This document shows, piece by piece, positions 21,867-50,933 of a stretch of 64,000 bases of DNA. The position numbers were made by a program, and so were the translations under genes. The number at the start of each line of letters is the position of its first letter. Position 1 is the first letter of the stretch. Origin of the DNA: Giardia intestinalis (Eukaryota); the NCBI GenBank assembly GCA_000002435.2, contig CM018793.1; one strand, written 5' to 3'. Under the pieces are notes generated by a model. That model searched no databases. It was not told the origin of the DNA and was given only the letters and a program-made list of their open reading frames with translations.

Positions 21867-22035
21867 ATGTCCCCTATCTGCCCGATTCTCGTCTGCCAGA
21901 GTCTAAGGGCTTTTATGGATTGGGGACAGAGGGGCGGCGAGGGGTCAGGCACGCGGAGCAGAGGCACCCCTCGCAGCCAGCCGTGCGCCGCTAGCGAATC
22001 CAGCAAGACGACGCCGGGGCCATGAAAACACAAAA

Positions 22036-25000
22036 ATGGGGGACAGAAACCTGGACTGGAACCGGACGACCGCCCCGCTCCCGTTCGTGTGGTCGGACAT
22101 GGAGCCGGCGATCTACGAGCTCAGCGAGTCGTTCCTCCCCGTGGACCTGTCCGCCTCCCACCTCGCGCTGGGCAGGTCGTCGTTCCTCTCGCTCTTCGAG
22201 GACGAGCTGGGCGCCGACGAGGCGAGGCGGGGCTACGACGGGCTTCTGCCGGAGAGGCCGGGACCCTGCACCCTGGCGGCCTCGCCCCTGCCGGCCAAGC
22301 GGGCGCACGTGAGCTCCCTACTGGCGGAGGCCAGGCGCGGCGCATTCGAGTCCCAGCTGGAGCGGAGCGTCCTGCCCAGCTCCACCGTCTTCGCGCGCCT
22401 GGAGCAGGCCCTCCAGCGACCCCCGGAGGGCAGCAAGGCGGCGCTCCAGGCGGCCCTGTTCTACGTGCTCGGCCTCCGCATAAGCTGCGCCCTGCCCCTC
22501 CCCCTGGACCCCGACACCGTGGTGAAGCGGGCGCTCCTCCTCTTCCTCCACAACGGCGGCTCCTTTTTCAGGCAGGTCCTCAAGCGGTTCGGCGTCCTCG
22601 CCGGCGAGTGCGCGGTCTCCCTCTCGGACTTGAGGGCGGAGTCGACGCAGAACGCAAGCAAGCAGCTCCCGCCTCCCCTGACCCACTGCATCCAGGTCCT
22701 GCATCTTGTGCTGACCTCCCTGAACCTGCGGGGGGTCACCGTCTTCGAGCACACCGTCTACGATCGCCTGGACGGCTCAGTCGACTGCTCGCCCTACCTC
22801 CACACCTTCGAAGGCTTCGTCAGGGCTCTGGTCCACCCCCTTGCGCTCCTACTCTCCAAGCTGATCCAGGCAGACGCAGGCCCGCACAACAACACCTTCA
22901 ACAACGCGATCGCCCGCTGCGTGGCTTGCTGCCGCCCGGTGGCCCTGCTGAGACAGGCGCTCCTCCTCCTCCTGGGCCCGCTGGGCGACCACAAGCAGGC
23001 CCGGAAGTGCCGGAGCATCCGCAGGATGGCCCTGGAGGAGCAGGGCAGCGCCGGGTCTTGCGCGATCAAGACCGTCAAGCGGCTTCCGCCCCCGCGCTTC
23101 CGTGGCTACGTCAACCCCACATCCTCGTCTGTCGCGGCCCTGCTGCGGTTCTTCGAGGGCTCGTTCAGGCCGAAGGACACCCCCTTCTCGTCCGGCAACG
23201 TCTCCCCCTACGCCGATAAAGGCGTCGCAGACCAGATGGCAGAGTGTGCAAGCGTCATTACGGCCTTCAACGCCCGCCAGCCCAACAGGCGGCGCCCGGG
23301 GCTCTTCCCGGGGCTCGCAGAGGAGTACGCCAACCGGAGGGACGAGGCCGCGCTAGGCCTCTTCCAGCTGCTCCCCAGGCCGGACGTGCGGATCGGCCTG
23401 CAGTCCCTGGCAGACCTCCACGGCGGGTACATGGCCATGCGGTACAGCTGCGACGCCAGAGAGTCAGTCATGTCGCGCTCCCAGGAGACCTCTGTCGGCG
23501 GCCGGAGCGACCTGGACGGCGGGTACGACGCCGAGCTGGAGCGCACCCTCGGCAACGTGGTGGTCACCAGCGACTACCGCATGTACCTCAACAGGGTCAA
23601 GCGGGGGCTGACCGCGTCCTTCCCGTTCTCGGGGAGGCCGGTTGCGAAGGGCAATCTGCCCTACTTCGAGCGGTGCATAGAGAAGGTGCTGTCCTTCAAC
23701 TACCACGAGGAGCGGTTCCGCAGCATCAAATACCACGAGCTGGTCAACGTGCTCACCTACGCGCTTCCCCTGGACGTCCAGCGGGCGATGCTCGTCAGCA
23801 TTTCCAACGAGGCCGACTGCGTCCTGGAGCACCAGTTCTACCACCTGATCCGAGAGGTCGACATGCCGGCGTTCCTCTCGTCGCTGCTCCGCCTGGCGCT
23901 GTGCGGGGTCCCCCACATGCTCGAGACGGTCCTGTCGGCCAAGGCGACTGCGGGCACGACGAAGGACGCTGAGAAGGGCGCGTTCTCCAACAACACCCCG
24001 TCGTCCACGCGGCACGTCCGGGAGTCTGTGCTGAAGAGCTGCCTCCACGTCCTTCTCCTCCTGCAGGCGAAGGCCCGCCAGGTCCACCCGAGCGTGGGCC
24101 TTTTCGTCTCCAGCATAATACAGCGGTGCAACGGTCAGGGGTGCGGGCTCGACGCCGTCATCGCCACCATGTGCCTGCCTGCGGCCGCGTACATAACGGG
24201 CGTGGACCCGCGGACCGCCGCGCTGGGCACGTGCCTTTTCCTCCCCGGCCAGGCCGCGGACGCGCTCGCTCCGGACGAGCGGGTGGCCGACGCAGGCGAG
24301 TTCCTCCAGGCCAGGCCCGCCAAGCAGGGCGCCCCGCCGGACCCGGCGCTAGACCCCGCGAGGCCCCTCCACAGCATGGCGAGCGGCAGGCGGCTGTTCT
24401 GCCTGCTGACGGCGTCGCGCTGCTTCTACGGCTACATCTCGCACTCCGCGTCCCGGGCCCAGGAGGCCCTCGCCCTCTACTCGAAGGTGAGCGCCAATTA
24501 CATCTCGTACATCCTGCAGTCCTCCAGCACGGCGGCCAGCCAGGGGTCTGCCGCTGCCGCCGCAAGCCAGGCCCTTCCAGACAACCTCAGCCAGACGACC
24601 GTCTTCACCAGGGGCGCCCTGCAGCGCAAGGCAGGGGCCGCGGCGCAGAGCGTCCCGGGCGGGGGCTCCAGGCCGCCGATGGCGTACATCCCGAACAACC
24701 TGGCCAACCTGATGGAGTTCCTGCGCGGAGACAATAGCACCAACAACCCCGCCAACATAAACACGGCGGGCACGCTCACGTGCAACTTCCCGGGGTACCA
24801 GCTGTCCAAGGTCAACAACCTTTCGTCCATCGTCGTGCTTCTGAAGATCGCCAAGCACATACTGCCCTTCGCGGCGGGGGACTACTCGCGCATATACGGG
24901 GTGTTCGAGCTGCAGGGCCTCCCCGCCTTCCGCGAGTACCTGACGAAGCTCATCTACCAGCTCTCCATAAGCCCGTGCAGCGAGGACAGCTGGCGCTGGA

Positions 25001-25224
25001 CGAGGGACGTCGTCGCGAAGAACGCGGCGATCTTCGCAGAGTTCGAGCGCGCCGCCTTAATAGCCTTCACCGAGAAGTACCTCCTGCCCGACCGCCACCC
25101 GTCGCTGGCCCACTACGGGTGGCTCTACGAGAGCAGCCTGCCCGACGCCCCGGAGCAGTACGCGGCGGAGGAGGCCGTTGCGCTCTCCCAGCTCCACGCG
25201 GGATGGCCCTGTAACCGCATCTGA
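22036..25224 (+). CDS. Large hypothetical protein (1062 aa) encoded in a very GC-rich (about 68% GC) segment
   Basis: Uninterrupted 3.2-kb ORF with an ATG after CAAAA. The amino-acid composition is diverse (F/Y/W/N/H present, not merely Ala/Pro/Arg), which argues for genuine coding. All other frames over this span carry long stop-free ORFs purely because of GC richness. No motif recognised. Confidence 0.6.
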   Translation: MGDRNLDWNRTTAPLPFVWSDMEPAIYELSESFLPVDLSASHLALGRSSFLSLFEDELGADEARRGYDGLLPERPGPCTLAASPLPAKRAHVSSLLAEARRGAFESQLERSVLPSSTVFARLEQALQRPPEGSKAALQAALFYVLGLRISCALPLPLDPDTVVKRALLLFLHNGGSFFRQVLKRFGVLAGECAVSLSDLRAESTQNASKQLPPPLTHCIQVLHLVLTSLNLRGVTVFEHTVYDRLDGSVDCSPYLHTFEGFVRALVHPLALLLSKLIQADAGPHNNTFNNAIARCVACCRPVALLRQALLLLLGPLGDHKQARKCRSIRRMALEEQGSAGSCAIKTVKRLPPPRFRGYVNPTSSSVAALLRFFEGSFRPKDTPFSSGNVSPYADKGVADQMAECASVITAFNARQPNRRRPGLFPGLAEEYANRRDEAALGLFQLLPRPDVRIGLQSLADLHGGYMAMRYSCDARESVMSRSQETSVGGRSDLDGGYDAELERTLGNVVVTSDYRMYLNRVKRGLTASFPFSGRPVAKGNLPYFERCIEKVLSFNYHEERFRSIKYHELVNVLTYALPLDVQRAMLVSISNEADCVLEHQFYHLIREVDMPAFLSSLLRLALCGVPHMLETVLSAKATAGTTKDAEKGAFSNNTPSSTRHVRESVLKSCLHVLLLLQAKARQVHPSVGLFVSSIIQRCNGQGCGLDAVIATMCLPAAAYITGVDPRTAALGTCLFLPGQAADALAPDERVADAGEFLQARPAKQGAPPDPALDPARPLHSMASGRRLFCLLTASRCFYGYISHSASRAQEALALYSKVSANYISYILQSSSTAASQGSAAAAASQALPDNLSQTTVFTRGALQRKAGAAAQSVPGGGSRPPMAYIPNNLANLMEFLRGDNSTNNPANINTAGTLTCNFPGYQLSKVNNLSSIVVLLKIAKHILPFAAGDYSRIYGVFELQGLPAFREYLTKLIYQLSISPCSEDSWRWTRDVVAKNAAIFAEFERAALIAFTEKYLLPDRHPSLAHYGWLYESSLPDAPEQYAAEEAVALSQLHAGWPCNRI

Positions 25225-25259
25225 AAAGGACCCGCGTGTCTTTAGCCAAACAAAATATA

Positions 25260-25520
25260 ATGAACAATGGGAAGCATCGGTTCTACAGTAAACCTTGTCT
25301 GGGTGGATTGATGGGAAAGAGGGTCAGGGTGGATCTTGGCTATGGCCGCTGGGTGGAGGGGGTGCTTGCAGAGGCAGACGTCTTCACAAATCTGGTCCTG
25401 TCAGACTGTCACGGGTCGCGTCCGCTGGCTCCTTCTGAGGCTGCACCAATCACCGTGTTTCCGTCCTGTGTGGTTCGTGGCGCAGCTATCAAAGCAATCC
25501 TACTGGTGAGCCCCGACTAG
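25260..25520 (+). CDS. Sm-like (LSm/Sm fold) small protein
   Basis: Sm1-like LMGKRVRVDLGYGRWVEGVLAEADVFTNLVLSDCHG and Sm2-like VVRGAAIKAILLV segments are present. The track ORF starts at a GTG (25236); the true ATG at 25260 is preceded by AAACAAAATATA (AT-rich initiator). About 86 aa. Confidence 0.55.
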   Translation: MNNGKHRFYSKPCLGGLMGKRVRVDLGYGRWVEGVLAEADVFTNLVLSDCHGSRPLAPSEAAPITVFPSCVVRGAAIKAILLVSPD

Positions 25521-25556
25521 GTGGACATCTGCAGTGCGTGGAGCGCCTCTTGGCGT

Positions 25557-26315
25557 TTACTTGAAGACCTCCATGAACTCCTCAACTGGCTTATTGCAAG
25601 CAGGACAGACCTTGCTGGCCACGTCCTTCCCGCAGTCCTTGCAGAGGACGTAGTGCTTGCACGGCATGCAGACCAGGTTGGGGGCGTTGGCGCGGCACTT
25701 CACGCACTTCGTGTACTTCTTCGAGTTGAGGAGCTTGCGGATCTCGCCCAGGCACTTCTCGAGGGACTTGTTCAGCTGCTCCTCCGAGATCTCCGCCCCC
25801 TGGTCGATCCCCGAGCAGGAGAGGAAGTAGAACGCCTCGAAGAACGAGCGGAAGATGGCCATGTTGTGGCTCTTGACCTCGGCCTGCTGCGACTTCTTGG
25901 CCATCTCGGTGTAGGTGGCCGCGACCCTCTGCCGGAGCTGCTCCAGCATCGCCGCGTCCATCGTCTCGATGGTCTTCAGCCGGAGGACCTTGGCCGCCTC
26001 GAACTGCTTCGCCCTGGAGGCGTGGTTGAGGGCGGAGAGCTTGCCGGCGTCCCGCAGCCTCCCCTCCTTCTCGAAAAGGGCCTGGATCAGCTCGAGGTTC
26101 CCCCTCTTTGCCGCCGCGATCAGCGCGAAGGACCCGTCGTTCGAGACCAGGCCCGCCTCTGCGTCGACCAGCTCCAGGGCGACGGCGGTGTGCCCGGCCT
26201 CGGCGGCCCACATGAGCGCCGTCTTCCCGTCTGCGTCCCTCTGGCCTGCGTCCGCGGCCTTGTGGGCCCTGACGTAGTCCAGCCTGTTCTCCTTGGCCGC
26301 CTCAATAAGTGCCAT
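25557..26315 (-). CDS. Ankyrin-repeat protein with a C-terminal C3HC4 RING finger (putative E3 ubiquitin ligase)
   Basis: N-terminal ankyrin repeats (GKTALMWAAEAGHTAVALELV; GSFALIAAAKRGNLELIQAL) are followed by a C-terminal CVKCRANAPNLVCMPCKHYVLCKDCGKDVASKVCPACNKPV, whose Cys/His spacing fits a RING finger. True ATG. Confidence 0.65.
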   Translation of the reverse strand: MALIEAAKENRLDYVRAHKAADAGQRDADGKTALMWAAEAGHTAVALELVDAEAGLVSNDGSFALIAAAKRGNLELIQALFEKEGRLRDAGKLSALNHASRAKQFEAAKVLRLKTIETMDAAMLEQLRQRVAATYTEMAKKSQQAEVKSHNMAIFRSFFEAFYFLSCSGIDQGAEISEEQLNKSLEKCLGEIRKLLNSKKYTKCVKCRANAPNLVCMPCKHYVLCKDCGKDVASKVCPACNKPVEEFMEVFK

Positions 26316-26477
26316 TCTTTGCCTCCCAATTGCGATCGCGGCTCTTCATAAGACATATTGATAGAAAACTTGGAGACGTTGTTTCATGGCACTTTGGCAC
26401 GGACCGGAAGCATGGGGCGCTGGTCCGTAAGGCCTGTTCTCCAGGGCCTTCTGCTTCTCGTGAAGGGAACGACGGGT

Positions 26478-28584
26478 TTACTCGTGAGATCGTGGAGCAG
26501 CTTGGCGGCTGTTGCGACCACCGAGGCCCGGTATACGGCTGTCCCTAAGGAAAGATGCTATCTCAGAGTAGCCCTTGGCCTCAAGCTTATCAAAGAGGGA
26601 TTCGTCAGACTTGTCTATTAGATGCCCCTCCTTTTCAAATAGCAGCTTCACTATCTCTAAGCGGCCGCCATACGCTGCGTGCGTGATAGCGGGTAAGCCA
26701 TGGGGATCCAGCATGCAGCCTTCGCGCTCCATCAACAGCTGCACTACTTCTGCATGATTCTCAGAGGCAGCCTTCATGAGGGCGGTCGCATTACAAGTAT
26801 TCCCTGGGCCACTCTCATATTGCATTAGCAGTTGTACTGCTGCTACGTGGCCGCATACTGCTGCTTGTATTAGCGCCGTCCCAGTATGTGTCCATCGCTT
26901 CTTCTGAATGGGTATAAGTGCGCTTACTGCTAATGTGTCGCTTATTTTTGCGGCTCGCATGAGCGCTGTGACGCCCCTATCATCGGTTGGGTCGAGAACC
27001 TCCACTACGTTTTCGTGTCCTGCCTCTGCCGCAAGGATCCGAGCCGTCTTGCCTTGTCTGTCGGTCAGGTCCTCCTCGTACGGAGCCAGAACAGAAGCAG
27101 CCTCCGCATGGCCCTCCTGTGCAGCAATCATCAGAGCAGTACGGCCGTTCTTGCTCTTCCTCCCATGCTCATGAGGGATGAGAATCCTAGCTACCTCAGG
27201 ATGGTTCCCGTGTGCGGCGTGCATGAGCGCGGTCCAGCCGTTTTTATCTTTGATACCCTTCTCCTTCTCAACAAGCAGCTCAACAGGCCCACCGTGCCCC
27301 TGCTGGGCCGCGTGCATGAGGGCCGTCATCCCCCGCTTGTCGCGCTGGCCGATACAATCTTTCTCGTTGGCCAGCATCCGGACGGTCTCCATGTCATTCG
27401 TGTGTGCAGCATATATTAGTTTGAACAAGGAGAGGTCCGTCTGGGTGCCAACCACTTTCATTTCACTATTGGATTGTGTAAACTTATCCTCCAGTGCTTT
27501 TATCCGGCCTTCAAGCGTGCCAATCCCGGTGGTCTTAACTCTGGGTTCTTGCCCCAAGGCGTTGGCTTCACTTGGCCTGCTCTCAAGAGCGCCCTTGAAA
27601 GAGGCAGTCTCAGCAGACTTGGCGTCGAGGACTGCCTCAAGAATAGCAATCCTAGCATTAGCATTATTCAGAGCAGTCTTCAGGGAGCCGCATTCGTACT
27701 TCAGCACCGCATATTGAGCCCCCAGCTCACTAACTGGGATGTCGAATGTAGCGAGCGTCTCATGCAGCTCCCTGGCCGTCGGCCTCCTCTCTGGCTCTAG
27801 TACAAAGATCCTCTCCAGAACATTCTGCATGAAGCCATCAGTGATGCCACTCAGGTCCGGCCTCCACCCATCGACGAAGACCTCTGCCGGCTCCTTGCCC
27901 CCCAAGAAGTCCGGTCTCCTCAAAGTAGTAAGCTCGTAGACGATGGCCCCGAGGTTCCACATGTCGGAGGCGGGGCTGGCCTCGTTGCGGAGGAGCACCT
28001 CGGGGGCCACGTATGCCATTATTCCCATGAGAGTGCTCCCACTCCACAGGGCGTCCTTGCAGAGGCCGAGGCCAGTGATGACGAAGTGTTCACCATCTGC
28101 GCTGATAAGGACGTTGGCAGGCCTGAGGTCACAGTGGACAAGTCTCTCGGTATCTGCCCCACTGGCCCCGTAGAGGTAGGCGAGGGCGGCGGCGACCTGC
28201 CTCAGGACGGAGAGAATCACAGCGATAGGGACGAGAGTCTTCCTTCGTTTGTGCTCGGTGAGGAGGTGCTCAAGGGTCTTGTCTTGGCGATCCGTAACGA
28301 CGTAGATGAGGCCTTCGTCCTCGACCACTTGATGGTGCTTGAGGACTCCTGGATGGGAGAGGTCGGGGAGGGCGGTCAGCCCACGCTTTAGCATCCACAC
28401 CGTGCTGACCCAGACCGTCGAGCCGGATCTCCTTCACAGTGAGGTAGGGGTATCCCCTGAGAGAGTAGACTGTTCCCGCGGCACTTTCACTAAGCACATC
28501 ATCCAGCCCCTCGTAGAGCTCCCTGGGGGTGAACTGCGGGGCACTGAGAGCCACCGTTGCAGACCCAGACGAGGCGGCGTACAT
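26478..28584 (-). pseudogene. NEK-type protein kinase with a C-terminal ankyrin-repeat array, interrupted by a single frameshift between kinase subdomains II and IV (pseudogene or indel error)
   Basis: The upstream ORF 28270..28584 has a true ATG, an AT-rich initiator, and the kinase N-lobe GTVYSLRGYPYLTVKEIRLDG (Gly-loop and VAVK-Lys region). The 640-aa ORF 26478..28400 begins at a GTG and starts mid-kinase (…LSHPGVLKHHQ…LIYVVTD…HCDLRPANVLIS…GIMAYVAPEVL), then continues into a coiled coil and at least 6 ankyrin repeats (GMTALMHAAQQGH…). The two frames overlap at 28270..28443, and the +/-1 shift lies within about 28395..28443. Confidence 0.65.
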
Positions 28585-43700: not shown

Positions 43701-46251
43701 CTCAGCTACGAGTGAAAAGACTGAGAAAAGGCACCAGCTATCTACCATGCAAAAATTGCTTGCCCAGCAATGCTACTTTTCCGGTCACTCTCTCCATGGA
43801 TGCATAGATTTACTGCTAAGCGCTAACATAGATATACGGATATGTGCCATGCAAAATATGGAACTATATAATATGCTCAGCACATTCAACAGAGCTTTTG
43901 TTATGGAACAACTGCCAATTAAAACGTCCGAGCAGCGGACAGAAATCTCTTACCCAGACCCCATAGTCTTGTTGAAATATCTTTCATATGTTTACCAAGT
44001 ATTTGGTACAAGAGGATTGCCGAGTAGCAATAATAATCTGAATAGTATAGTCTTTGATCGCTTCTGCACTCCTATGTCAACGCCCTTGATTATGGCAGCC
44101 CAGTATGGAAGTCCTGTTTGTCATATACTTTGCGCCATCATAAACTCTCTGACAAAGTCTACCACTGCTGAAAGGGTGCTCAGCAATCCAAGTACACTGA
44201 GCGCATACGTCAATCATAGAGATGCATATGGACTCACCGCCCTTCATCATGCAACTATTCTGTTCATTCGAGCATTTGTTTCCATCATCAAGCATAGCCT
44301 TTCACCTATCATCTCACTAGGTCTTAGCCTTACAGCCTCTTTCCCAGCCATACATAAACCAGAAACGGTAATCTTTGATCATGAATTTGCTTGTAGTATC
44401 TTGGCCCTGTCACGGGCAAATGTTAAGGCCCTAATGCTGGCTGGAGCTGACCCTGGAATACCCGATGCCACAGGAGTGCGCTGCTGTGATAGACTCATTG
44501 CTATGTTGCTAGAGATGAATATGATACTGTTTCCACCAGAGTATGTAGTTGAGCGCTTTCATAAGGATCAGCCGACTGACATACTTATGCATCTAATACT
44601 GTGGTCAGAGAAGCACCACAAGCCTTCGCGTAGTGATGCAACTTTGAACCCTGACTCTTCTTTGACCGTTCGCATACCAATCTTAATCGAGGCTAAACAC
44701 GTTAATTGGAGAGAGGAATTAGTGAAACTACAGCTCAGACAATTGCAAAGATCTGGACACCTTACAAAGGATGTGTTGTCTACTGATCGCACATCTCCAC
44801 CACTAGCCCTTGATCTACGTGTCCAGATTAGCGTTGAGGTGCACCCGAAAATCTCTTCTGTATCCTCTGCCATGCAGGTCATAATACAATCCAATTGTAC
44901 CCGTGTGATCTCCGAACTGTCTATCGTGCTATCAATATTCCTCGGGCTTCCCGAATATCAAGATCGCAACCAGGCCTTTTCTAATGATATCATTACCACA
45001 TCCACTACCACCTTCATTCCTACCCCTGCGGAGATTGTTCCTCTCCCTTTTTGTAGTGTTAGTGCAGAGGGCATTCAGCACTATCTCGAACTCTGGTCCT
45101 CAGTGCCGGTCTTGGAGATAACGAAGCAGCCACCCCTCTCTTCACCTATGCCACCTATGCCAATGCAAGAACTACTTCTTTGGGCATACAGTCTGTACTC
45201 TGTCTATGGTCTCCGGGACTGTAGGTTCATTGACGAGTTTCATTCTAAATGGGCCACGACAGGTAACGCTTTCATTCCGTGGGATACTCAGGTGTACAGT
45301 TCCGACGCATCTGCAGAGGAAACCGTTACTTGTTCATCAGCTACAATACCTGCAGTTGACCAGCTGCCGCCTCTACTGCACTCTCTCTCACTAGAGTCTG
45401 CTATCGGCAGACTAGCACTTGGGGACAGTAGGGTGGTATACACTCGGAAATATAATTTAAAATTTTACAATAATCAATCTAATTGTCAATATTTTTCTGT
45501 ACATAGATTTAGAAATCAGGTGTGGAGGCGGATATTGGGGAACTTAAGAGCTAAGCCTTCAATATGTAATGAAAGCGTACACATCCAACACATAGACTTA
45601 GACAAGACAGGGTCTGCCATAGTCGATACCATAACGATGTCCGTGTCGCACACACTACTTCAGAGCTCACTACTGGACTTTCCGAACCAGATGCTATCCA
45701 CTGCAGACATCTTCACTCTTCTCAAGGAGTCCTTAGTTATATGCTTCCATGAAGAGGAAGCGTGTATAGAGTCTGAAGGCCGTGACTCACTGTGCGCCAC
45801 TGTTACCTACAGAGATGTACTCGGTCTTTCTAGCTCAGCTGACGACTCCGTTCTTCTGGATCTTCGAACGATATTTCGTCGTGCTAGGGTGCTCTCTATT
45901 TTGGCTGACAACATCTGCCCGCGATCGACTCTTCTATTCTGTTCGCCCGATGATCTGTGCTTCCCATCTGCGTGGATGCTGTCTCAGTGTTTCGCGGGGT
46001 CGAAGGTGTTCCTTGAGTCACTTTACTCAAGCAACTGCAACAACGATCTAGCGGAGGGCATAGACGAACTGTACGCTCCAAAGATTCCTCTGTTGGACGC
46101 TATGATTGATAGAACACTCCAGTCTACCAAAATATGTTCCACCCTCTTTGACGGCAGAGTCACAGAGGAAGCGGAGCCCGTAGACAAAAGAACTGTACTG
46201 TTCACACCGAATCGGCTAGGCTTCGCTAGGCTGCAAAATAAACACATTTAG
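37747..46251 (+). CDS. Giant hypothetical protein (about 2834 aa)
   Basis: Uninterrupted 8.5-kb ORF. A few ankyrin-like stretches occur (ETLLHAASKRDHLHIIELIL; LTALHHATILFIRAF). I saw no catalytic motifs. The true ATG is at 37747; the track's first codon is a TTG. Confidence 0.7.
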   Translation: MKPRSSRSDVHPKKDLVYPNPFWPPTGACCLQSPFSLDYQDAMLLLFRALERAVNLPILRMDDMAACYTVAFQRLSLLSLDHDKLNISFTDPDSDADLRMKKSASDAISSEGPISFSNAIPLRRSTLQVLTSNPLDLLNLATQFYDFLKFQTRLHSEILALIYCIHRIQTWSNSSSAQESNASFRKRSHEYFSSYLSTSLQNINTMIRDCPLLVDAYLSKMVCISLLRCLEPQIDTGHKDMLKELLGVANSGIENGSVLLALYDQVEYYSTNEFTGVYSESYLMHLTNTMKSLTHGLLLGWHTLRAYRVNLLRQLGRFDDACTEARELIKLTITTMQGEKHLSASLCTCVSDTLTLEPLDPIMFVAQQTNFVPVHSKGYNGFVQLPPPFQLELDNSLSSFSSQNAMGNTTTIKFPSLRDIYMSSPIGTSLPPEPESSNSNDPVNTSINVPINVDQSASFTDKMSSRQKTNAQAANTKAKDLSHKGRSLSDTSNMGCPIHSASSKHLDYRLTYLLAVLEAGYDDEAFEYLMSGVFRSRLFSRLKANLDYGTIYTTPKKSDYIRFEVQNDEKYHYHTTATSVNPSPVHYPTYYRHYSEGLNHKCVDDYFANGPQPVCKDCTKRTSHGARPHFVVRNDGAYNQYTMHSFLARHNKLLTNILYQRAYKHINHMFTSKHGTIHNRKPLSKLSLGRLKPSTNFVHNLRMSFDPKLLTIINCYFSSQIRGPLSRILFYGPYYQFRCTSDKPYTSFEDIQDVIDIISSSSHHAEQLQAQAIWFNYHAHNNQVGTTTPVSYSIIDSPASIFLCTSETKATNSLLRTTPLTTTVTTYTLLFLLLKRRATWANKLAQSIFAERMLGCNCARSSMLFKRSMNVMDLAMAWPKKCLHLKIMPSMLLTDLGVRPAIPSTKLLQLAFSTNPYVVEYLLAKAVLPSKVALYGLTLLFDASACEDPDCLLVAQYPNEDLQLSTYRHAVRAWQDRYCRSSEEKQGTYTIDPKAASCTEARDKDMRKTASRLRLSERRRALFQLVQDQRKLEAAIYASEFGGLWGSNALYLQIYALAEKLATEDGIMAGIPFSFYIRSLRIITLGACDECGNSFLNGKGVQLSSHGYLHIASLDFLLQAYVQYLQFEAASTLRSLAIHTSITAKSYPADIIDTTDALDTKDIKDTSTSLREAFFKRWRLIWRATLLQFKGYPPYLSLRSAQAMKELFYNMIFTHRNVSTPDKPGMLSYVNPLLCLLNTNSQFLDIMTLASTAANDKNGLLSLLQSYLVAFMSGNQKELFSVSAIESQPTNVYFDMPIFVVFFSLTIISILEFKPSFAPGSLLSEFTRLTTFSPITDATTSAGLLFYSANDLSHHYISPMSKTKKHISLTLLNCMALGMLSRKEDASNAQIIGNNATSSSAATFIANRDAYKALQGSTCDTLDKWLSTKVLATSKISSLSFQSGSNTQHDVRGKRKPARYMKSLSYQHKRSPPPSRALEPHHSQNIDDILLSSFYIDDENRLYRSFLRNPGLSLRLSRLQRTQYFGLATLNTILEMEDIIERMFVTVNYSVSDLILIYFMAHSFDHTSRKANLSYIYDSDAVLNYRCPISSFGTANMPPIYYLVETGQDEVFMLLMERVISALSYRNHLSTLEENSTSTASDCPVLPEEFCGYSFSLAEDMVLKVDHEDSDVVLEADSNSPLLTYLAARRKARLGPSSDLDLDAFVTPSTISFGGTHKIAIYEAQAKILNIPLSRAEIDALYTAKTLSKQEIETCLNPLWANIVGSTKLLRSSIDSLVHCCYKGETLLHAASKRDHLHIIELILLIFPVDCYDLLRSFYAALLNHSSGALRLFLPSPLHPSLEGVRDIAADIKEGISTITTETPECKYLLKHSIAAASALSDMSNILLNSFSYDVNPLLKLGSGESPFSPLANHEQLADKLQEFQQLVSSSQYYSFLAWAHLVRTLRPFCSGTTGGVSCLHCHHAKSSPCKKSNLLKYLSFAKTHSATSEKTEKRHQLSTMQKLLAQQCYFSGHSLHGCIDLLLSANIDIRICAMQNMELYNMLSTFNRAFVMEQLPIKTSEQRTEISYPDPIVLLKYLSYVYQVFGTRGLPSSNNNLNSIVFDRFCTPMSTPLIMAAQYGSPVCHILCAIINSLTKSTTAERVLSNPSTLSAYVNHRDAYGLTALHHATILFIRAFVSIIKHSLSPIISLGLSLTASFPAIHKPETVIFDHEFACSILALSRANVKALMLAGADPGIPDATGVRCCDRLIAMLLEMNMILFPPEYVVERFHKDQPTDILMHLILWSEKHHKPSRSDATLNPDSSLTVRIPILIEAKHVNWREELVKLQLRQLQRSGHLTKDVLSTDRTSPPLALDLRVQISVEVHPKISSVSSAMQVIIQSNCTRVISELSIVLSIFLGLPEYQDRNQAFSNDIITTSTTTFIPTPAEIVPLPFCSVSAEGIQHYLELWSSVPVLEITKQPPLSSPMPPMPMQELLLWAYSLYSVYGLRDCRFIDEFHSKWATTGNAFIPWDTQVYSSDASAEETVTCSSATIPAVDQLPPLLHSLSLESAIGRLALGDSRVVYTRKYNLKFYNNQSNCQYFSVHRFRNQVWRRILGNLRAKPSICNESVHIQHIDLDKTGSAIVDTITMSVSHTLLQSSLLDFPNQMLSTADIFTLLKESLVICFHEEEACIESEGRDSLCATVTYRDVLGLSSSADDSVLLDLRTIFRRARVLSILADNICPRSTLLFCSPDDLCFPSAWMLSQCFAGSKVFLESLYSSNCNNDLAEGIDELYAPKIPLLDAMIDRTLQSTKICSTLFDGRVTEEAEPVDKRTVLFTPNRLGFARLQNKHI

Positions 46252-46271
46252 CCGGACATAGACACCGAAAC

Positions 46272-47231
46272 TTAGTTTTTGTACACCGAAGACGCATCTT
46301 GGTCCATCTGAGGGAACATGACTGCTTGATATGGCTGGCCGAAGCCAGCGCCAGGGGGCACACCCATTACCGGCTGACCACTGCCAGCAGCCGGGAGCCA
46401 ATACATTAACCACTGGTATGGTACCGATGGATGATTTAAGAATCCAGGGCCTGCAACTGGCGTCTGAAGAGACAGCTGTTGCCATGCAGTAGGCACAACT
46501 GGCCCCTGGCTTGGAGCTGGCGAGGTAGAGGCAGCAGCAGCAGCAGTTGCCGTTGCAGCGGTCGTGGGGGGAGAGAAGGCCGAAAGGCCCACTGGAAACA
46601 CCGGCTGCGAGACCATTTGGGAAGAGGAAAAAGGTGGTTGTTGTGTAAACGAGTTCGTCGCCGGCTGATCAGCTGAGTTGGCAGTACCGTCAGTCGCAAG
46701 GGCAGCAAGAGTCGGCTTCTGATCGGCCGGATGTTGCCTCGTTTTTGACACAATAGAAACCGCGTGACGCTTAGTAGGAAGCGTAATTTTCTTGCGGCTC
46801 AGAATACGCTGTATGTCACGGCTTCTGAGCATGTTGTTGTAAGTCATCATAATCTCCTGTCGAGGATACTTGGACTCAAATAGATTACGAATTGTAAGTT
46901 GAAAACCATCCTCTAAAATTGTTTGAGTCTCAATCCCCTGGATAATAGCGTCCTTAATTATTTTCTTGTCTTCTGCTGACATCTTAATACCGGATATGCG
47001 ACGCAGATGCGTTTCGTTATACCAATGATAGACACTTGCGCGGGTCATGCCCAAATCCTTAGCGATACTTGGCCAGTTAACACGCATTTTGGAAACATAA
47101 CTATGAAGCGTTACCGGATTTTTAATAAGCTGCTCCATCGAGTGCTGGGGATCTAGCGTGGCGATGACTTGTACAGCAAGGGCACGCAATACTGCACGAT
47201 GAACATCGTTATAATCATCCGGTACAAGCAT
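46272..47231 (-). CDS. Putative Myb-like/helix-turn-helix DNA-binding protein with a Q/P/A-rich C-terminal low-complexity region
   Basis: NWPSIAKDLGMTRASVYHWYNETHLRR resembles a Myb/SANT third helix (W..IA..L..RT…W…L). The C-terminal 130 aa are a P/Q/A/T-rich tract (…TTAATATAAAAASTSPAPSQGP…). The track ORF starts at a TTG; the true ATG at 47231 is preceded by TTGAATTGAAAAAA. Confidence 0.45.
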   Translation of the reverse strand: MLVPDDYNDVHRAVLRALAVQVIATLDPQHSMEQLIKNPVTLHSYVSKMRVNWPSIAKDLGMTRASVYHWYNETHLRRISGIKMSAEDKKIIKDAIIQGIETQTILEDGFQLTIRNLFESKYPRQEIMMTYNNMLRSRDIQRILSRKKITLPTKRHAVSIVSKTRQHPADQKPTLAALATDGTANSADQPATNSFTQQPPFSSSQMVSQPVFPVGLSAFSPPTTAATATAAAAASTSPAPSQGPVVPTAWQQLSLQTPVAGPGFLNHPSVPYQWLMYWLPAAGSGQPVMGVPPGAGFGQPYQAVMFPQMDQDASSVYKN

Positions 47232-47360
47232 TTTTTTCAATTCAAGACCGTTAATATATTTTGTGGTCTTTAACAGTCAATGTGCCCTAGAAGCCGCTAT
47301 CCCGTTAAAGCGCCTCTTTCAGTTTATAACCGAGCAAAAAGCTTCGTTCAGGCCCTCGAG

Positions 47361-47390
47361 TCATGTACTAATCATGTACTGTCATGTACT
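47361..47390. repeat. Three copies of TCATGTACT spaced 11 and 10 bp apart (helically phased), about 130-160 bp upstream of the 46272..47231 gene
   Basis: The direct sequence is TCATGTACTAATCATGTACTGTCATGTACT. The motif contains the palindromes CATG and GTAC, and it sits in a 680-bp ORF-free intergenic region. Confidence 0.6.
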
Positions 47391-47909
47391 ATTTGAGTTG
47401 TAATTCGTGCAGTCAAGAAGTCATGACCGGCTCAACCCTCTGCTGTAAATCTCGAAGCATATGTCACCGCGTCGTGTGGTCTTCTTGACCGAGCATCTAA
47501 ATATTTTCGATGACAAACCTTTAGCTAATTTATAAAGGGTTTCTGTTTAGGCAGTATCTTTGGCACGATTCTCCTCTTCGCCCTCTGGGCCCTGTCTATT
47601 TTCCCCTGTCAGAATGGTTTATGTATGGCATATCAAATTTTTGTCAAATTATATAGACCATTCAGCTTAGAATCTTGCTTAAGGAAGTGTGCTTCCGGTC
47701 TAGACGGTGAAGGTTTACTTCGCTAGTATTTACTAGTAATTTCTTTCGGTATAATCTTATGAGATCTCCTACTCTTGAAGAGTACATCTCTTACTTTCGT
47801 TCTTTGCAAAGTGCAAAAGCTTTTGCCTTTCTCTTATGACTGCAGAGGGCTGTAAGGATGGGATGGCCGAAGAGCTTTGAGGAGGTTTTTGGGGGACCTC
47901 GGGCTATGG

Positions 47910-50900
47910 CTATAGCCTCAGAAACAGGTCTGCGCAGCCATAGTCAAGATGCTGTCTTCTTCCGACTGTCCATTCCAGCACTGATACGCTCGACTTTGGA
48001 GGATGCGCCATGTTCTGCGGCTGCAGGCAGGCAGGAGATGAGGCCAATAGTTCATCCATGCTGGGCGCAAAAAGGTCTATAGCCAGTCCACTGTATAGTT
48101 TAGCTGAATCACATGTTAATTTATATGCCTGTCTAACTCTGTGTGCCACATGGAATAGACCTGCAAACAGAAACGAGGAGGCTACGCCAGCTCCAAACCG
48201 ATAATAGAGCGCCTCGAATAGCCCCTGAAAAGCGTCAGAAAGCGTCCTATCACATAAGTCTAAGATGTTGGGGAAGGCCATCGAAATTAGATGGTCCAGC
48301 AGAGGAGACCCTTGCTGAATAGGGACACACGATAGCATCATGCTCTCTGCCACCCGCATACCCATCAAGCGCATAGACCCGTCTCTCTCTGCAAGCGCAT
48401 GCGATGCAACTCCAACCGTACCCTCCAAGAGTGCCATGTATGTGGTGCACCTTGTTTCACAGCTCTCTCTACTGCTCTCAGGCAACATCTGTGTACTTGT
48501 TAGTGATACCATGTTAAATGCGTAGGTTATTGTGCGAAGTATTGACAATTTAATGGCCCGATCCGGTAGTGCGCCATATTGAACGAGCAGGAACGGGAGA
48601 GCAGCACCAACTCCAGCAGAGAGCAAGACTGCAGCAGCTGCATGACACAAGACTAGTCTTGTTGATCTAGAAACAGTACCTTCGGTGATAAAGAGTGCCC
48701 AAAAGAGATCGTGAAGTGGACACACCTTACTTGCCTGTACTACTGCTTCTACTGCTAATTGCTCCAAGACACGAACACTGACGCTCTCTAGTGCATCGGG
48801 AATCAGACGCAAGCATTGAAGGATGTCTGGTCCCATGTTCTCTACCAGACTAGAGTGCAGCTCAAATTTCGAGAGATGCTTGTGTGCCTGAGAACTGACT
48901 GTTTCGAACACCTTATATGTCGCACACAAGTAGCTACATGCATCTTTCTTATCTGCTTTCATCCGCTCAGAAATCATGGTCTCGTGGATCTGGGCACATA
49001 TAACAGGTAGAAACGACACCAGTGGCCGTATCTGAGTGTGCGAAAAGGAGATGCCAGAGTTCATGATATCTACTAGGAGCTCACACACGATACTGAACCG
49101 CAATGCATCTGTGTCTGGCCTGAGGAGTTGAAATTGAGAAGCTATGAGGACAAATGCCCTTTCAAATAGCTCAGCAACCCCACTAATAGTAACATCTTCT
49201 AGGCTCTTTGATTCCACCAATAAGCGCAAGTAGATGGACAAGGGACCCAGGTACTGCGCAAAATCATTGCTGCACAGGTACTGCCTGAATTGCGGTAAGA
49301 CGTGCTCAACTATGAGCACGCGCAATACACCAGGCGTAAGACTAGCTACACTGATGAGACCCTGATGAATATCATGTAACAGTGAAAGGAATCCGTGATC
49401 AGTCCGGTGAATGGCCAGGATCAGTCTCTCCAGTGATTGTAGGAGCTGGAGAAGGACTGGTTTGGATAATGATTGATGCTTAGTTGAAGAGAAGCGTCGG
49501 AGGGCAAGCATTATTATGGAAAGAAGCGTTTTATCTGATGCTAGGTTGTGCATTTGTCCCTGTCTGCGTCTTAGAAGCAGGAGAAAAGCATTGAAGATAA
49601 TCTCAGGGAACAGAAGCGCAAGGTCTTGGAACACAGATGTAAAATGAAAATAAACATCACCAGGATAGTCTGACTTAGGAAGTAGGCATAGCCCTAAGAT
49701 ATTAGCTCCTTTTCGTTCAAGAAATCCATACACTTTCTCTCTAAAAGACTCGGCAACTGGAGCTATTCTCAAAAAGGCATTGAGAAGGAAGCAAACAGAA
49801 CGGATTCCGTGGGCAGAAAAGACTTGATTAACACTGCTAAATTTGTTACCAAGAGTGTCAATAGCGGACGAGAAAAACGCACAAAGGCGGTAATCCAAAC
49901 CACATATAATGGTGTGTGCATGCACAGACCAGCATATGGCCTCAATGTAAACCAATCCGTGTCTTATTAATGAGTTTGGGTGGGAAGCCAGCGTCACGAA
50001 GTGCTCATGCATTACAGAGATAGCATCTGGCGTTTCCCCTAAGCACAGCAGAATTTTCAGTATCTCTTGTGCCTGAGGGAGAGTTTTATCTAACTTTTGA
50101 CAGAGACAGCTGCACAAAGTCAGGTAGTCAGTCCAGGCAATGGTTGTGACGCAGTTATGACTCTTCAGCATCCAAGTGGTGAAGAAGTGCAGGCCATCGA
50201 TAACAGTTTCGCATGAGAATGAGACAGACTTTGAGAATCCATCATCATCCTTTCTATTGTTCTTAATGAATGTGGTAGTTAGTTCTTGAACAAGCCAATC
50301 AATGAAAAATGGGTTATATGCCTGCTGCATGCGTAGAACAAAGCGGAAGAAGAACGAAGCGTAGAGGTCAATAGCCATCGATGAGTCCGGTCCGGTCTCT
50401 GCCTTAATGCCCTCAAGTTGCTCTTTAATGAAGGATAGAACAAGCGAGATAAACGTGGTCATTGGGGTTGTTGTTTCAAGGACAGTGAAAAGAGTCGCAG
50501 ACAACTTTCCAAAGGTAGCGATGCCAGCCTTACGGTCGAGCCGAGAGAATGCGGTCTTTAAGATGGAAAAGCGAGAAGACTGCCTTACGATATGGTGAAT
50601 GTATTCACGATACGGCAGTTTTTTGCTTATGATGGCAGATAAAAGATCAAGTTGACTATCTATCTTATCGCCAAGTGGGTGCCGGCAAAGTCTTGCTATC
50701 AGCTTCTTAAGAATTTGCATGTGGATATTTGTGCTGCACTCGGGAATATAATCTGCTAGGATGCTGCAGATATCTTTAGAGCTATTGCGGCGAATAAATT
50801 CATCATAAAGGGTGTTTGGGCCCAAGGAGCCATTTTTGGCTTGTAAAGCTGCATCTGTAACAAAAAACCTAACAAGTTTTCCATGGGTGCTACACTTAAG

Positions 50901-50933
50901 TGCTGGTTCGATTGTCGCTGGTCCCGGCAGCAT
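47910..50933 (-). CDS. Large hypothetical protein (1007 aa), predicted helical-repeat (HEAT/ARM-like) character
   Basis: True ATG with initiator GGGAGTTCTTTTTAAA-ATG. Leucine-rich alpha-helical composition throughout. No motif recognised. Confidence 0.65.
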   Translation of the reverse strand: MLPGPATIEPALKCSTHGKLVRFFVTDAALQAKNGSLGPNTLYDEFIRRNSSKDICSILADYIPECSTNIHMQILKKLIARLCRHPLGDKIDSQLDLLSAIISKKLPYREYIHHIVRQSSRFSILKTAFSRLDRKAGIATFGKLSATLFTVLETTTPMTTFISLVLSFIKEQLEGIKAETGPDSSMAIDLYASFFFRFVLRMQQAYNPFFIDWLVQELTTTFIKNNRKDDDGFSKSVSFSCETVIDGLHFFTTWMLKSHNCVTTIAWTDYLTLCSCLCQKLDKTLPQAQEILKILLCLGETPDAISVMHEHFVTLASHPNSLIRHGLVYIEAICWSVHAHTIICGLDYRLCAFFSSAIDTLGNKFSSVNQVFSAHGIRSVCFLLNAFLRIAPVAESFREKVYGFLERKGANILGLCLLPKSDYPGDVYFHFTSVFQDLALLFPEIIFNAFLLLLRRRQGQMHNLASDKTLLSIIMLALRRFSSTKHQSLSKPVLLQLLQSLERLILAIHRTDHGFLSLLHDIHQGLISVASLTPGVLRVLIVEHVLPQFRQYLCSNDFAQYLGPLSIYLRLLVESKSLEDVTISGVAELFERAFVLIASQFQLLRPDTDALRFSIVCELLVDIMNSGISFSHTQIRPLVSFLPVICAQIHETMISERMKADKKDACSYLCATYKVFETVSSQAHKHLSKFELHSSLVENMGPDILQCLRLIPDALESVSVRVLEQLAVEAVVQASKVCPLHDLFWALFITEGTVSRSTRLVLCHAAAAVLLSAGVGAALPFLLVQYGALPDRAIKLSILRTITYAFNMVSLTSTQMLPESSRESCETRCTTYMALLEGTVGVASHALAERDGSMRLMGMRVAESMMLSCVPIQQGSPLLDHLISMAFPNILDLCDRTLSDAFQGLFEALYYRFGAGVASSFLFAGLFHVAHRVRQAYKLTCDSAKLYSGLAIDLFAPSMDELLASSPACLQPQNMAHPPKSSVSVLEWTVGRRQHLDYGCADLFLRL

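What the first reader, a model, noticed from the sequence alone, without database searches (positions are those of the whole stretch)
47361..47390. Helically phased triple TCATGTACT repeat upstream of a Myb-like gene
Three exact copies of TCATGTACT lie at 47361, 47372 and 47382, a spacing of 11 and 10 bp, which is about one helical turn, so all three face the same side of the DNA. The motif embeds the palindromes CATG and GTAC. It sits 130-160 bp upstream of the Myb-like or HTH Q/P/A-rich gene (ATG at 47231), inside a 680-bp ORF-free region. Most promoters in this genome appear to be shorter than 60 bp, so a phased array this far upstream is a candidate transcription-factor binding cluster, possibly autoregulatory for the adjacent Myb-like factor.
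Basis: seen in the sequence. Interest (0 to 1): 0.5.

Follow-up and report, generated by a model that had tools for sequence, protein, structure and literature searches.

The report
Conserved triple repeat upstream of Giardia gene
Three copies of a 9-base motif, spaced one DNA turn apart about 150 bases upstream of a Giardia gene, have been held nearly unchanged across distant Giardia lineages while the surrounding DNA drifted freely, so they are most likely a protein-binding control element placed unusually far from the gene for this parasite.

Summary
TCATGTACT occurs exactly three times in the 64-kb window, all at 47361, 47372 and 47382. It is the only phased triple repeat in the window, and none appears in 200 shuffles.

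The window is Giardia duodenalis WB (assemblage A). The array lies at -130 to -159 from the ATG of GL50803_13948.

Orthologous loci from assemblages A, E and B and two further lineages show the following:
- The 678-bp spacer as a whole evolves at the neutral rate (22.7% invariant columns against 23.4% at 4-fold sites).
- The array keeps 20 of 31 positions (P about 1e-6).
- It has no indels and the same 10/11-bp spacing in four of the five lineages.
- At a strict threshold it is the only constraint island besides the core promoter.

The conserved core is TAYRTG, not the CATG/GTAC palindromes. Assemblage B has a fixed two-unit version.

The spacer shows no ncRNA signature, no conserved ORF and no RNA structure.

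The neighbouring protein has a confident all-helical N-terminal domain with only weak HTH/Myb-like similarity. Four paralogue promoters lack the motif, so autoregulation is untested.

Best reading: a conserved distal cluster of protein-binding sites. It is a new example of a known kind of element and of moderate interest.

The parts
47382..47390 (-). Repeat unit 1 in gene orientation (AGTACATGA; -151 to -159 from the ATG)
   Evidence: Exact copy. Kept as AGTACATGA in assemblage E and locus L005, and as AGTACGTGA in L006-8. Deleted in assemblage B.
47372..47380 (-). Repeat unit 2 (AGTACATGA; -141 to -149)
   Evidence: Exact copy. Orthologous units are AGTACATGA (E), GATATGTGA (L005), AGTACGTGA (L006) and GATACGTGG (B).
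47361..47369 (-). Repeat unit 3 (AGTACATGA; -130 to -138)
   Evidence: Exact copy. Orthologous units are AATACATGA (E, L005), TGTATATGG (L006) and ACACGTG displaced by 2 bp (B).
47370..47396 (-). Distal constraint island (alignment columns 612-638). It covers units 1 and 2 and the 5' flank. It is the only island in the spacer apart from the core promoter at the threshold of at least 10 of 15 invariant columns.
   Evidence: 17 of 27 columns invariant in four lineages; 20 of 31 invariant over the whole array against a neutral 23.4% (P = 1.3e-6). No gap columns fall in the array, against 153 of 735 in the spacer.
47232..47265 (-). Core promoter island with the AT-rich initiator (TATATTAAC...AATTGAAAAAA directly before the ATG)
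   Evidence: 23 of 36 columns invariant. This fits the Giardia core promoter described in PMC1885649.
46272..47231 (-). Downstream gene GL50803_13948 (319 aa): a confident all-helical N-terminal domain (residues 1-150) and a disordered Q/P/A-rich tail
   Evidence: identity. (AlphaFold2: pLDDT above 90 for residues 11-150). (only weak HTH/Myb-like similarity).
47910..50933 (-). Upstream gene on the same strand (1007 aa, no Pfam family). The spacer lies downstream of its stop codon.
   Evidence: Synteny is conserved in all orthologous loci.
47232..47909 (.). The 678-bp non-coding spacer. As a whole it evolves at the neutral rate.
   Evidence: Invariant fraction is 0.227 against 0.234 at 4-fold sites. 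It has no conserved ORF, no Rfam family and no Giardia ncRNA 3' processing motif.

Best explanation
The three AGTACATGA units (gene orientation) are a homotypic cluster of binding sites for one sequence-specific DNA-binding protein. They form a distal upstream control element of GL50803_13948. The recognised core is the hexamer TA-YR-TG with flanking purines. The 10/11-bp spacing puts the three sites on one face of the helix, so three protomers (or one multi-domain protein) could bind side by side and cooperatively, then act on the core promoter about 110 bp downstream.

Shown here: the repeat is real, non-random and unique in the window; it is ancient (older than the split of assemblages A, E and B and two further lineages); it is under purifying selection in sequence, copy spacing and position; and the spacer carries no RNA-gene or coding signal.

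Inferred, not shown: that a protein binds it, which protein that is, whether it activates or represses, and that the target is the downstream gene.
For: (1) The array is real and non-random: the only three copies in 64 kb, and the only phased triple repeat in the window, with 0 of 200 shuffles producing one.
(2) Constraint: identity to the window is 0.80 in both distant lineages, against a spacer mean of 0.37-0.42 and 4-fold-site identity of 0.42-0.43. This places it in the top 0.2-1.4% of spacer segments.
(3) 20 of 31 positions are invariant in four lineages against a neutral 23.4% (P = 1.3e-6). All 12 TA..TG positions are invariant.
(4) The spacer overall is neutral (22.7% invariant). At a strict threshold only two islands exist, the core promoter and the array.
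(5) Spacing of 10/11 bp and position (-134 to -161) are kept in four lineages. There are no indels in the array, although 21% of spacer columns carry gaps.
(6) There is no copy-number variation within lineages: 9 assemblage A, 3 E and 4 B assemblies.
(7) All substitutions inside the hexamer fall on the central YR step, as expected for a degenerate position in a binding site.
(8) Alternatives were tested and found empty: no Rfam family, no ncRNA 3' motif, no conserved ORF, no RNA structure.
(9) Giardia transcription factors with sites in their own promoters are documented (Myb2, WRKY, Pax2; PMC3280250), so a regulated regulator gene has precedent.
Against: No binding, transcription-start or expression data could be obtained; the RNA-seq table held is truncated. 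Assemblage B has lost exactly one unit, and its remaining two cores are 13 bp apart, so three phased copies are not indispensable. The motif is at chance frequency elsewhere in the window and absent from four paralogue promoters, so no regulon is visible. A genome-wide test was impossible. The two most distant lineages share ancestry (0.61 identity at 4-fold sites), so they are not fully independent witnesses. The 12-of-12 core statistic was chosen after seeing the data. Known Giardia promoter elements lie within about 50-90 bp of the start codon (PMC1885649), so a working element at -150 would be atypical.
Confidence: 0.55

Rival explanations
1. The array is a protein-bound boundary element rather than an activator site. 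In this reading it is a roadblock terminator or insulator that stops read-through transcription from the upstream 1007-aa gene (same strand) from entering the promoter of GL50803_13948. This would resemble arrays of Reb1/TTF-I (Myb-like) terminator sites.
For: The two genes are in tandem on the same strand, with the array between them. Transcripts spanning intergenic regions are reported to be continuously generated throughout the Giardia genome (PMC1885649). AGTAAA-type hexamers that could be poly(A) signals lie about 175-200 nt after the upstream stop codon in all lineages, upstream of the array. The constraint evidence fits this reading equally well.
Against: There is no evidence for roadblock termination in Giardia. 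The array does not resemble Reb1 or Sal-box sites. The position is kept relative to the downstream ATG (-134 to -161), while the distance to the upstream stop varies by about 100 bp between lineages.
Confidence: 0.12
2. The array works through DNA mechanics. Three in-phase runs of alternating pyrimidine-purine steps (TA-YR-TG) would form a bendable hinge or nucleosome-positioning signal that shapes promoter chromatin without a dedicated sequence-specific factor.
For: What is conserved is exactly an alternating Y-R hexamer. All observed changes inside it are transitions that keep the Y-R pattern. The 10/11-bp period equals the helical repeat. That Y-R steps are the most flexible is my own knowledge.
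Against: Transitions are also the commonest mutations, so the pattern may be mutational. The outer T, A, T and G are invariant in 12 of 12 positions, although a purely structural signal would tolerate CA/TG/TA exchange there too. Three turns are short for positioning a nucleosome.
Confidence: 0.1
3. The element acts as RNA. It could be repeated protein-binding sites in a long 3' UTR or read-through transcript of the upstream gene, or part of an unannotated non-coding RNA.
For: Some Giardia 3' UTRs run to several hundred nt or more, and 3' UTR lengths are largely conserved between assemblages (PMC3610916). The array is about 520-550 nt downstream of the stop of a gene on the same strand.
Against: There is no Rfam family and no Giardia ncRNA 3' processing motif. 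There is no stable or conserved structure: consensus folding term -0.3 kcal/mol, z-scores +1.36 and -0.05. The rest of the putative UTR evolves neutrally. AGTAAA-type hexamers lie well upstream of the array.
Confidence: 0.08
4. The array is a functionless tandem duplication (a short minisatellite) that happens to have survived.
For: Tandem duplication by slippage readily makes 10-11-bp triplets. One lineage (B) lost exactly one unit, as slippage would predict. The motif has no detectable partners elsewhere.
Against: The array predates the divergence of five lineages whose 4-fold sites are down to 0.32-0.47 identity in the most divergent comparisons, yet it keeps 20 of 31 positions (P about 1e-6) and its spacing. 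There is no copy-number polymorphism in 20 assemblies. The surrounding spacer is neutral and full of indels.
Confidence: 0.07

Closest known systems
Proximal cis-elements of Giardia promoters (AT-rich initiator; Myb2, GARP-like, WRKY and E2F sites in cwp/myb2 promoters)
   Same: These are short sequence-specific elements upstream of a Giardia gene. Some Giardia factor genes carry sites for their own product (Myb2, WRKY, Pax2; PMC3280250).
   Different: The known elements lie in the proximal upstream region and around the transcription start, and the core promoter lies within about 50 bp (PMC1885649). The array is at -130 to -159, consists of three same-orientation copies at helical spacing, and matches neither C(T/A)ACAG nor the AT-rich initiator. 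Full-text searches pairing Giardia with GTACATG or TACGTG returned no title pointing to a promoter element; the hit passages were not opened.
Homotypic clusters of transcription-factor sites and helically phased direct repeats bound cooperatively (for example OmpR/PhoB-type 10-11-bp direct repeats, or the FOX homotypic cluster in the TP53 promoter, PMC9410875 as listed)
   Same: Several copies of one motif lie in the same orientation at about one helical turn, so bound proteins share a DNA face. This is the mechanism proposed here.
   Different: No binding protein is known for this array. The bacterial response regulators are unrelated to anything found at this locus. The comparison is functional only and rests on my own knowledge, not on a test.
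E-box / hypoxia-response-type hexamers (CANNTG; TACGTG)
   Same: The conserved core TA-YR-TG reads TACGTG in the L006-8 lineage (units 1 and 2). Assemblage B has TACGTG plus CACGTG. This looks like an asymmetric E-box.
   Different: In assemblages A and E the core is TACATG, which lacks the CG that bHLH and bZIP proteins contact. No bHLH protein was sought or found here. The resemblance is recalled from memory and is only a lead.
Arrays of Reb1 / TTF-I (Myb-like) terminator sites between tandem transcription units
   Different: There is no sequence similarity to those sites, the structural hits are not significant, and such termination has not been shown in Giardia.

Membership tests
Homotypic cluster of transcription-factor binding sites (upstream regulatory element) | Three or more copies of one short motif, same orientation, within a few tens of bp, beyond chance | tested here: met
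   Three exact 9-mers within 30 bp. It is the only phased triple in 64 kb, and 0 of 200 shuffles have one.
Homotypic cluster of transcription-factor binding sites (upstream regulatory element) | Purifying selection relative to neutral sites and to flanking non-coding DNA | tested here: met
   20 of 31 positions invariant against 23.4% at 4-fold sites (P = 1.3e-6), with the spacer at 22.7%. Top 0.2-2% of spacer segments in 3 of 4 comparisons. One of only two islands in the spacer.
Homotypic cluster of transcription-factor binding sites (upstream regulatory element) | Spacing and position of the sites conserved | tested here: met
   Spacing of 10/11 bp at -134 to -161 in A, E, L005 and L006-8. 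Exception: assemblage B has 2 units 13 bp apart.
Homotypic cluster of transcription-factor binding sites (upstream regulatory element) | Same motif recurs at other (co-regulated) promoters | tested here: inconclusive
   GTAYRTGA occurs 10 times in the window against 7.3 expected; 7 of the 10 lie outside the array. Four paralogue promoters have none. The metagenome scan returned only unrelated minisatellites, none from Giardia. The whole genome was not available.
Homotypic cluster of transcription-factor binding sites (upstream regulatory element) | Bound by a sequence-specific protein, and mutation changes transcription | not testable with these tools
   Needs EMSA, ChIP or DAP-seq, and reporter assays.
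Myb-binding sites (Giardia Myb2 C(T/A)ACAG; canonical YAACNG) | Unit contains the consensus on either strand | tested here: not met
   Direct reading of 47355-47400 on both strands. The nearest strings are TGACAG at the unit 1/2 junction and CAACTC in the flank; neither fits.
Neutral micro- or minisatellite | Copy-number polymorphism among close isolates, and units decaying at the neutral rate | tested here: not met
   Identical three-unit array in 9 assemblage A assemblies. Fixed states in 3 E, 4 B and 4 other assemblies. Decay is far below neutral.
Giardia small non-coding RNA gene (sno/snRNA type) | 12-nt 3' processing motif HCMTTYHHTHAA downstream of the RNA (PMC3510501) | tested here: not met
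   No match in 47232-47909 on either strand (the motif is taken).
Giardia small non-coding RNA gene (sno/snRNA type) | Match to a curated RNA family, or a conserved secondary structure | tested here: not met
   No relevant Rfam match at E of 1 or less. RNAalifold folding term -0.3 kcal/mol. Single-sequence z-scores +1.36 and -0.05.
Myb/SANT or homeodomain-like HTH protein (the neighbouring gene product) | Scores above the curated threshold of a Myb or homeodomain Pfam model | tested here: not met
   HTH_23 14.8 bits (cut-off 24.6); Myb_DNA-bind_8 11.6 (27); Myb_DNA-bind_6 11.9 (22.9). Only 1-2 of 35 family members reach E below 0.01. A profile search of PDB sequences found nothing.
Myb/SANT or homeodomain-like HTH protein (the neighbouring gene product) | Significant structural similarity of the confident domain to tri-helical HTH repeats | tested here: inconclusive

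The most novel reading that the evidence does not exclude
GL50803_13948 is the founding member of a multigene family of double-HTH transcription factors so far seen only in Giardia duodenalis. On this reading the triple TA-YR-TG array is its own operator: the protein binds cooperatively to three in-phase sites 150 bp upstream of its gene and autoregulates. That would give Giardia its first defined distal regulatory element and a new factor-site pair in an organism thought to rely on minimal, loosely specified promoters.
Probability: 0.1. Interest if true: 0.6.

Novelty: new member of a known kind. Interest (0 to 1): 0.35.

Why it matters
Giardia is usually described as having minimal, relaxed promoters of about 50 bp, with regulation thought to be mostly post-transcriptional (PMC3091692, PMC1885649). 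This is a sequence-specific element at -150 that has resisted change across assemblages whose neutral sites are close to saturation. It shows that at least some Giardia genes carry distal, selectively maintained DNA signals.

The locus also offers a natural experiment. Assemblage B has a two-unit version, while A, E and two further lineages have three units. The element is small enough (31 bp) for clean reporter, EMSA and pull-down work. If the binding protein were the adjacent uncharacterised helical protein, a new family of Giardia regulators would be defined.

It remains a single locus without expression or binding data, so the finding is a good experimental lead rather than a surprise for the field.

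Tried and rejected
(1) Known RNA family in or near the spacer. An Rfam E-value search of 46000-49000 found only a chance lncRNA hit inside the coding region. There are no tRNAs in the window.

(2) Giardia ncRNA 3' processing motif (HCMTTYHHTHAA / CCTTYNHTHAA, PMC3510501). It is absent from the spacer; the three to four matches in the window all lie elsewhere.

(3) Hidden small protein. Stop-to-stop segments of the spacer were searched by tblastn against four orthologous spacers. Hits to P15 appear in all frames, which reflects DNA similarity. Nothing is frame-specific in the distant lineages, and the ATG-ORFs (at most 44 aa) are not conserved.

(4) Structured RNA. RNAalifold and single-sequence folds of both strands gave nothing. 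The 9-bp inverted repeat 47412-47420 / 47481-47489 is not kept in P15.

(5) Other arrays in Giardia. None of the 120 loci has DNA or protein similarity to the window.

(6) Motif in promoters of paralogues (GL50803_38275, GL50581_3964, GL50581_3707 and the P0008 paralogue). There is no array, only one isolated GTACATG at -246.

(7) Expression and 3' UTR data for the gene from the RNA-seq supplement of PMC3610916. The stored table is cut and lacks the gene and its orthologue IDs.

(8) Literature on the gene number or the motif. Only primer-like or reference-list matches turned up.

(9) Puf-type UGUA sites on the + strand RNA. Rejected because UGUA becomes CGUA in other lineages and no + strand gene has its 3' UTR here (reasoning).

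(10) WRKY W-box and TALE TGACAG readings of the unit junctions. These are not conserved across lineages.

Full report
**What is there**

The + strand carries TCATGTACT at 47361, 47372 and 47382, with spacing 11 and 10. These are the only copies in the 64-kb window, where 0.43 would be expected. Tandem Repeats Finder sees the array with period 10-11. A direct count shows it is the only place in the window where any 7-, 8- or 9-mer occurs three times at 9-12-bp spacing. None of 200 dinucleotide-preserving shuffles produces such a triple.

**Organism and context**

The window is Giardia duodenalis (intestinalis/lamblia). The ORF 46272-47231 on the minus strand is 100% identical to GL50803_13948 of isolate WB, assemblage A.

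The next gene upstream on the same strand (47910-50933, 1007 aa) ends 678 bp before this ATG. In gene orientation the units read AGTACATGA and lie at -130 to -159.

Directly before the ATG is a typical AT-rich Giardia initiator (AATTGAAAAAA-ATG). [quoted passage not shown] An element at -150 is therefore outside the usual promoter.

**Comparative evidence**

I retrieved the orthologous locus from the following sources:
- 9 assemblage A assemblies, including DH/AII
- 3 assemblage E assemblies (P15)
- 4 assemblage B assemblies (GS, GS_B, BAH15c1 and a metagenome)
- two further lineages with 67% protein identity (L005; L006-8). I did not verify which assemblages these belong to.

Gene order and a long spacer (572-686 bp) are kept everywhere.

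Neutral divergence was measured at 4-fold degenerate sites of the gene. Identity to the window is 0.73 (E), 0.54 (B) and 0.43/0.42 (the two distant lineages).

Against that background the array is 0.93, 0.80 and 0.80 identical to the window in E and the two distant lineages. This places it in the top 2%, 0.2% and 1.4% of all 30-column segments of the spacer.

Across the four three-unit lineages:
- 23.4% of 4-fold sites in the two flanking genes are invariant.
- 22.7% of all spacer columns are invariant, so the spacer as a whole is neutral.
- 20 of 31 array positions are invariant (binomial P = 1.3e-6).

With a threshold of at least 10 invariant columns in 15, the spacer contains exactly two islands: the core promoter (-34 to 0) and the array (-165 to -139). 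No alignment gap falls in the array, although 153 of 735 spacer columns carry gaps.

Unit starts are at:
- -158/-148/-137 in A and E
- -161/-151/-140 in L005
- -155/-145/-134 in L006-8

So the 10/11-bp spacing is kept exactly. The apparent shift in DH is only a different annotated start codon.

**What exactly is conserved**

The units in other lineages include AGTACGTGA, GATATGTGA, AATACATGA and TGTATATGG. The invariant positions are T, A, T and G of the hexamer TA-YR-TG, in 12 of 12 positions in the four lineages. This subset was chosen after seeing the data, so the P value of 2.7e-8 is only indicative. All change inside the hexamer is at the central YR step.

Assemblage B is the exception. 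All four assemblies lack exactly one 10-bp unit. They retain ATACGTG at -149 and ACACGTG at -136, 13 bp apart. Within each lineage there is no copy-number variation, so this is not an unstable microsatellite.

**What it is not**

- No Rfam family reaches even E = 1 in the spacer, and there are no tRNAs.
- The 12-nt processing motif that marks Giardia sno/snRNA genes and trans-spliced intron halves (PMC3510501) is absent.
- No reading frame is conserved in the distant lineages.
- The array region has no stable or conserved RNA fold: RNAalifold folding term -0.3 kcal/mol, z-scores +1.36 and -0.05.
- The unit matches neither the Giardia Myb2 site C(T/A)ACAG nor YAACNG (direct reading).
- Literature searches pairing Giardia with GTACATG or TACGTG returned no title that points to a promoter element; I did not open the hit passages.

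**Is it part of a wider motif system?**

Within the window the degenerate unit GTAYRTGA occurs 10 times (7 outside the array) against 7.3 expected, which is chance level. A metagenome scan for degenerate triple arrays was swamped by unrelated minisatellites, and none of the 120 loci is Giardia.

**The neighbouring protein**

Pfam gives only sub-threshold HTH_23 and Myb hits. A full HMMER search found 58 cluster representatives sharing the N-terminal domain of about 150 residues. All ten clusters whose members I looked up belong to G. duodenalis and represent several paralogues per genome, for example GL50803_38275 and GL50581_1998/3964/3707/3044.

A DNA-binding HTH protein is plausible, but 'Myb-like' is not established. 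The promoters of four paralogues carry no such array. Autoregulation has precedent in Giardia (Myb2, WRKY, Pax2; PMC3280250), but nothing here tests it.

**Interpretation**

The best-supported reading is a distal, selectively maintained cluster of three binding sites for one sequence-specific protein. The sites are placed on one helical face and act on the promoter of GL50803_13948 (confidence about 0.55). Constraint, spacing, position and the absence of RNA or coding signals are shown. Binding, the identity of the factor, the direction of the effect and the target gene are inferred.

The rivals are:
- a roadblock or insulator between the two tandem genes (0.12)
- a DNA-mechanical element made of in-phase alternating pyrimidine-purine steps (0.10)
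- an RNA-level element in a long 3' UTR or unannotated RNA (0.08)
- a functionless duplication (0.07, disfavoured by the conservation test)

**Caveats**

- The two most distant lineages share part of their history.
- 4-fold sites may not be fully neutral. If they are constrained, the test is conservative.
- Alignment of diverged non-coding DNA is uncertain outside the islands.
- Assemblage B shows that the third unit and exact phasing are dispensable in at least one lineage.

**Verdict**

This is a new example of a known kind of element (a homotypic upstream binding-site cluster), unusual for Giardia in its distance from the gene and its conservation. It is of moderate interest as a compact, testable lead.

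Noticed in passing
window 47599-47618 (minus strand ACCATTCTGACAGGGGAAAA; CTGACAG = 47606-47612): This is the best-conserved block in the middle of the spacer (mean pairwise identity 0.77). It holds a 7-bp palindrome with a free centre, CTG-N-CAG. A, E and B have CTGACAG. L005 has CTGTCAG, which is the exact reverse complement produced by one central change. L006-8 have lost it. It may be a second binding site, for a dimer.
   Followed up: partly
window 47713-47719 and 47728-47734 (minus strand AGTAAAC, AGTAAAT): AGTAAA-type hexamers of the kind reported as Giardia poly(A) signals lie about 175-200 nt after the stop of the upstream 1007-aa gene. An equivalent hexamer (AGTAAAT, AGTAAAC or AATAAAC) lies at about the same aligned place in every lineage. 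If it is used, the upstream mRNA would end well before the repeat array.
   Followed up: partly
gene 46272-47231 (-) and its homologues P0008-P0063: GL50803_13948 belongs to an uncharacterised multigene family, so far seen only in G. duodenalis. Members share a confident all-helical N-terminal domain of about 150 aa (invariant W53 and N133; motif YHWYxETHxR) and have variable low-complexity tails. The family has no Pfam model and no significant structural neighbour. I did not check whether it extends to G. muris or other diplomonads.
   Followed up: partly
loci L015-L017, L020-L023, L026, L031-L032, L040-L063 and others (metagenome contigs ERZ808278, ERZ808245, SAMEA104315439, UEQL01, OGRD01): An 11-bp repeat, (TTAGTATGTGA)n with 3 or more copies, is dispersed over dozens of contigs of about 50% GC, some up to 250 kb, from a few gut metagenomes. 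It is often preceded by ATGNNATT and often sits near a contig end. The source looks like an unidentified eukaryote and is unrelated to Giardia (no similarity to the window).
   Followed up: no
window 22001-28000: A strongly GC-rich stretch (0.57-0.68, against about 0.47 elsewhere). It contains a 1062-aa ORF (22036-25224, +) with no Pfam family and a protein kinase with ankyrin repeats (26478-28400, -).
   Followed up: partly
locus L129:2702-2725 (upstream of paralogue P0008): A different short direct repeat (GGCGTTTCCTT / GGCGTTTTCTT, 13 bp apart) lies about 300 bp upstream of a paralogous gene, which also has a long (433-bp) upstream spacer. Its conservation was not examined.
   Followed up: no
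window 47813-47826: A perfect 14-bp palindrome, GCAAAAGCTTTTGC, lies about 85-100 nt downstream of the stop of the upstream gene, in a moderately conserved block (CAAAA..TTT..ACTTTACAAA in other lineages). The palindrome itself is kept only in assemblages A and E.
   Followed up: no
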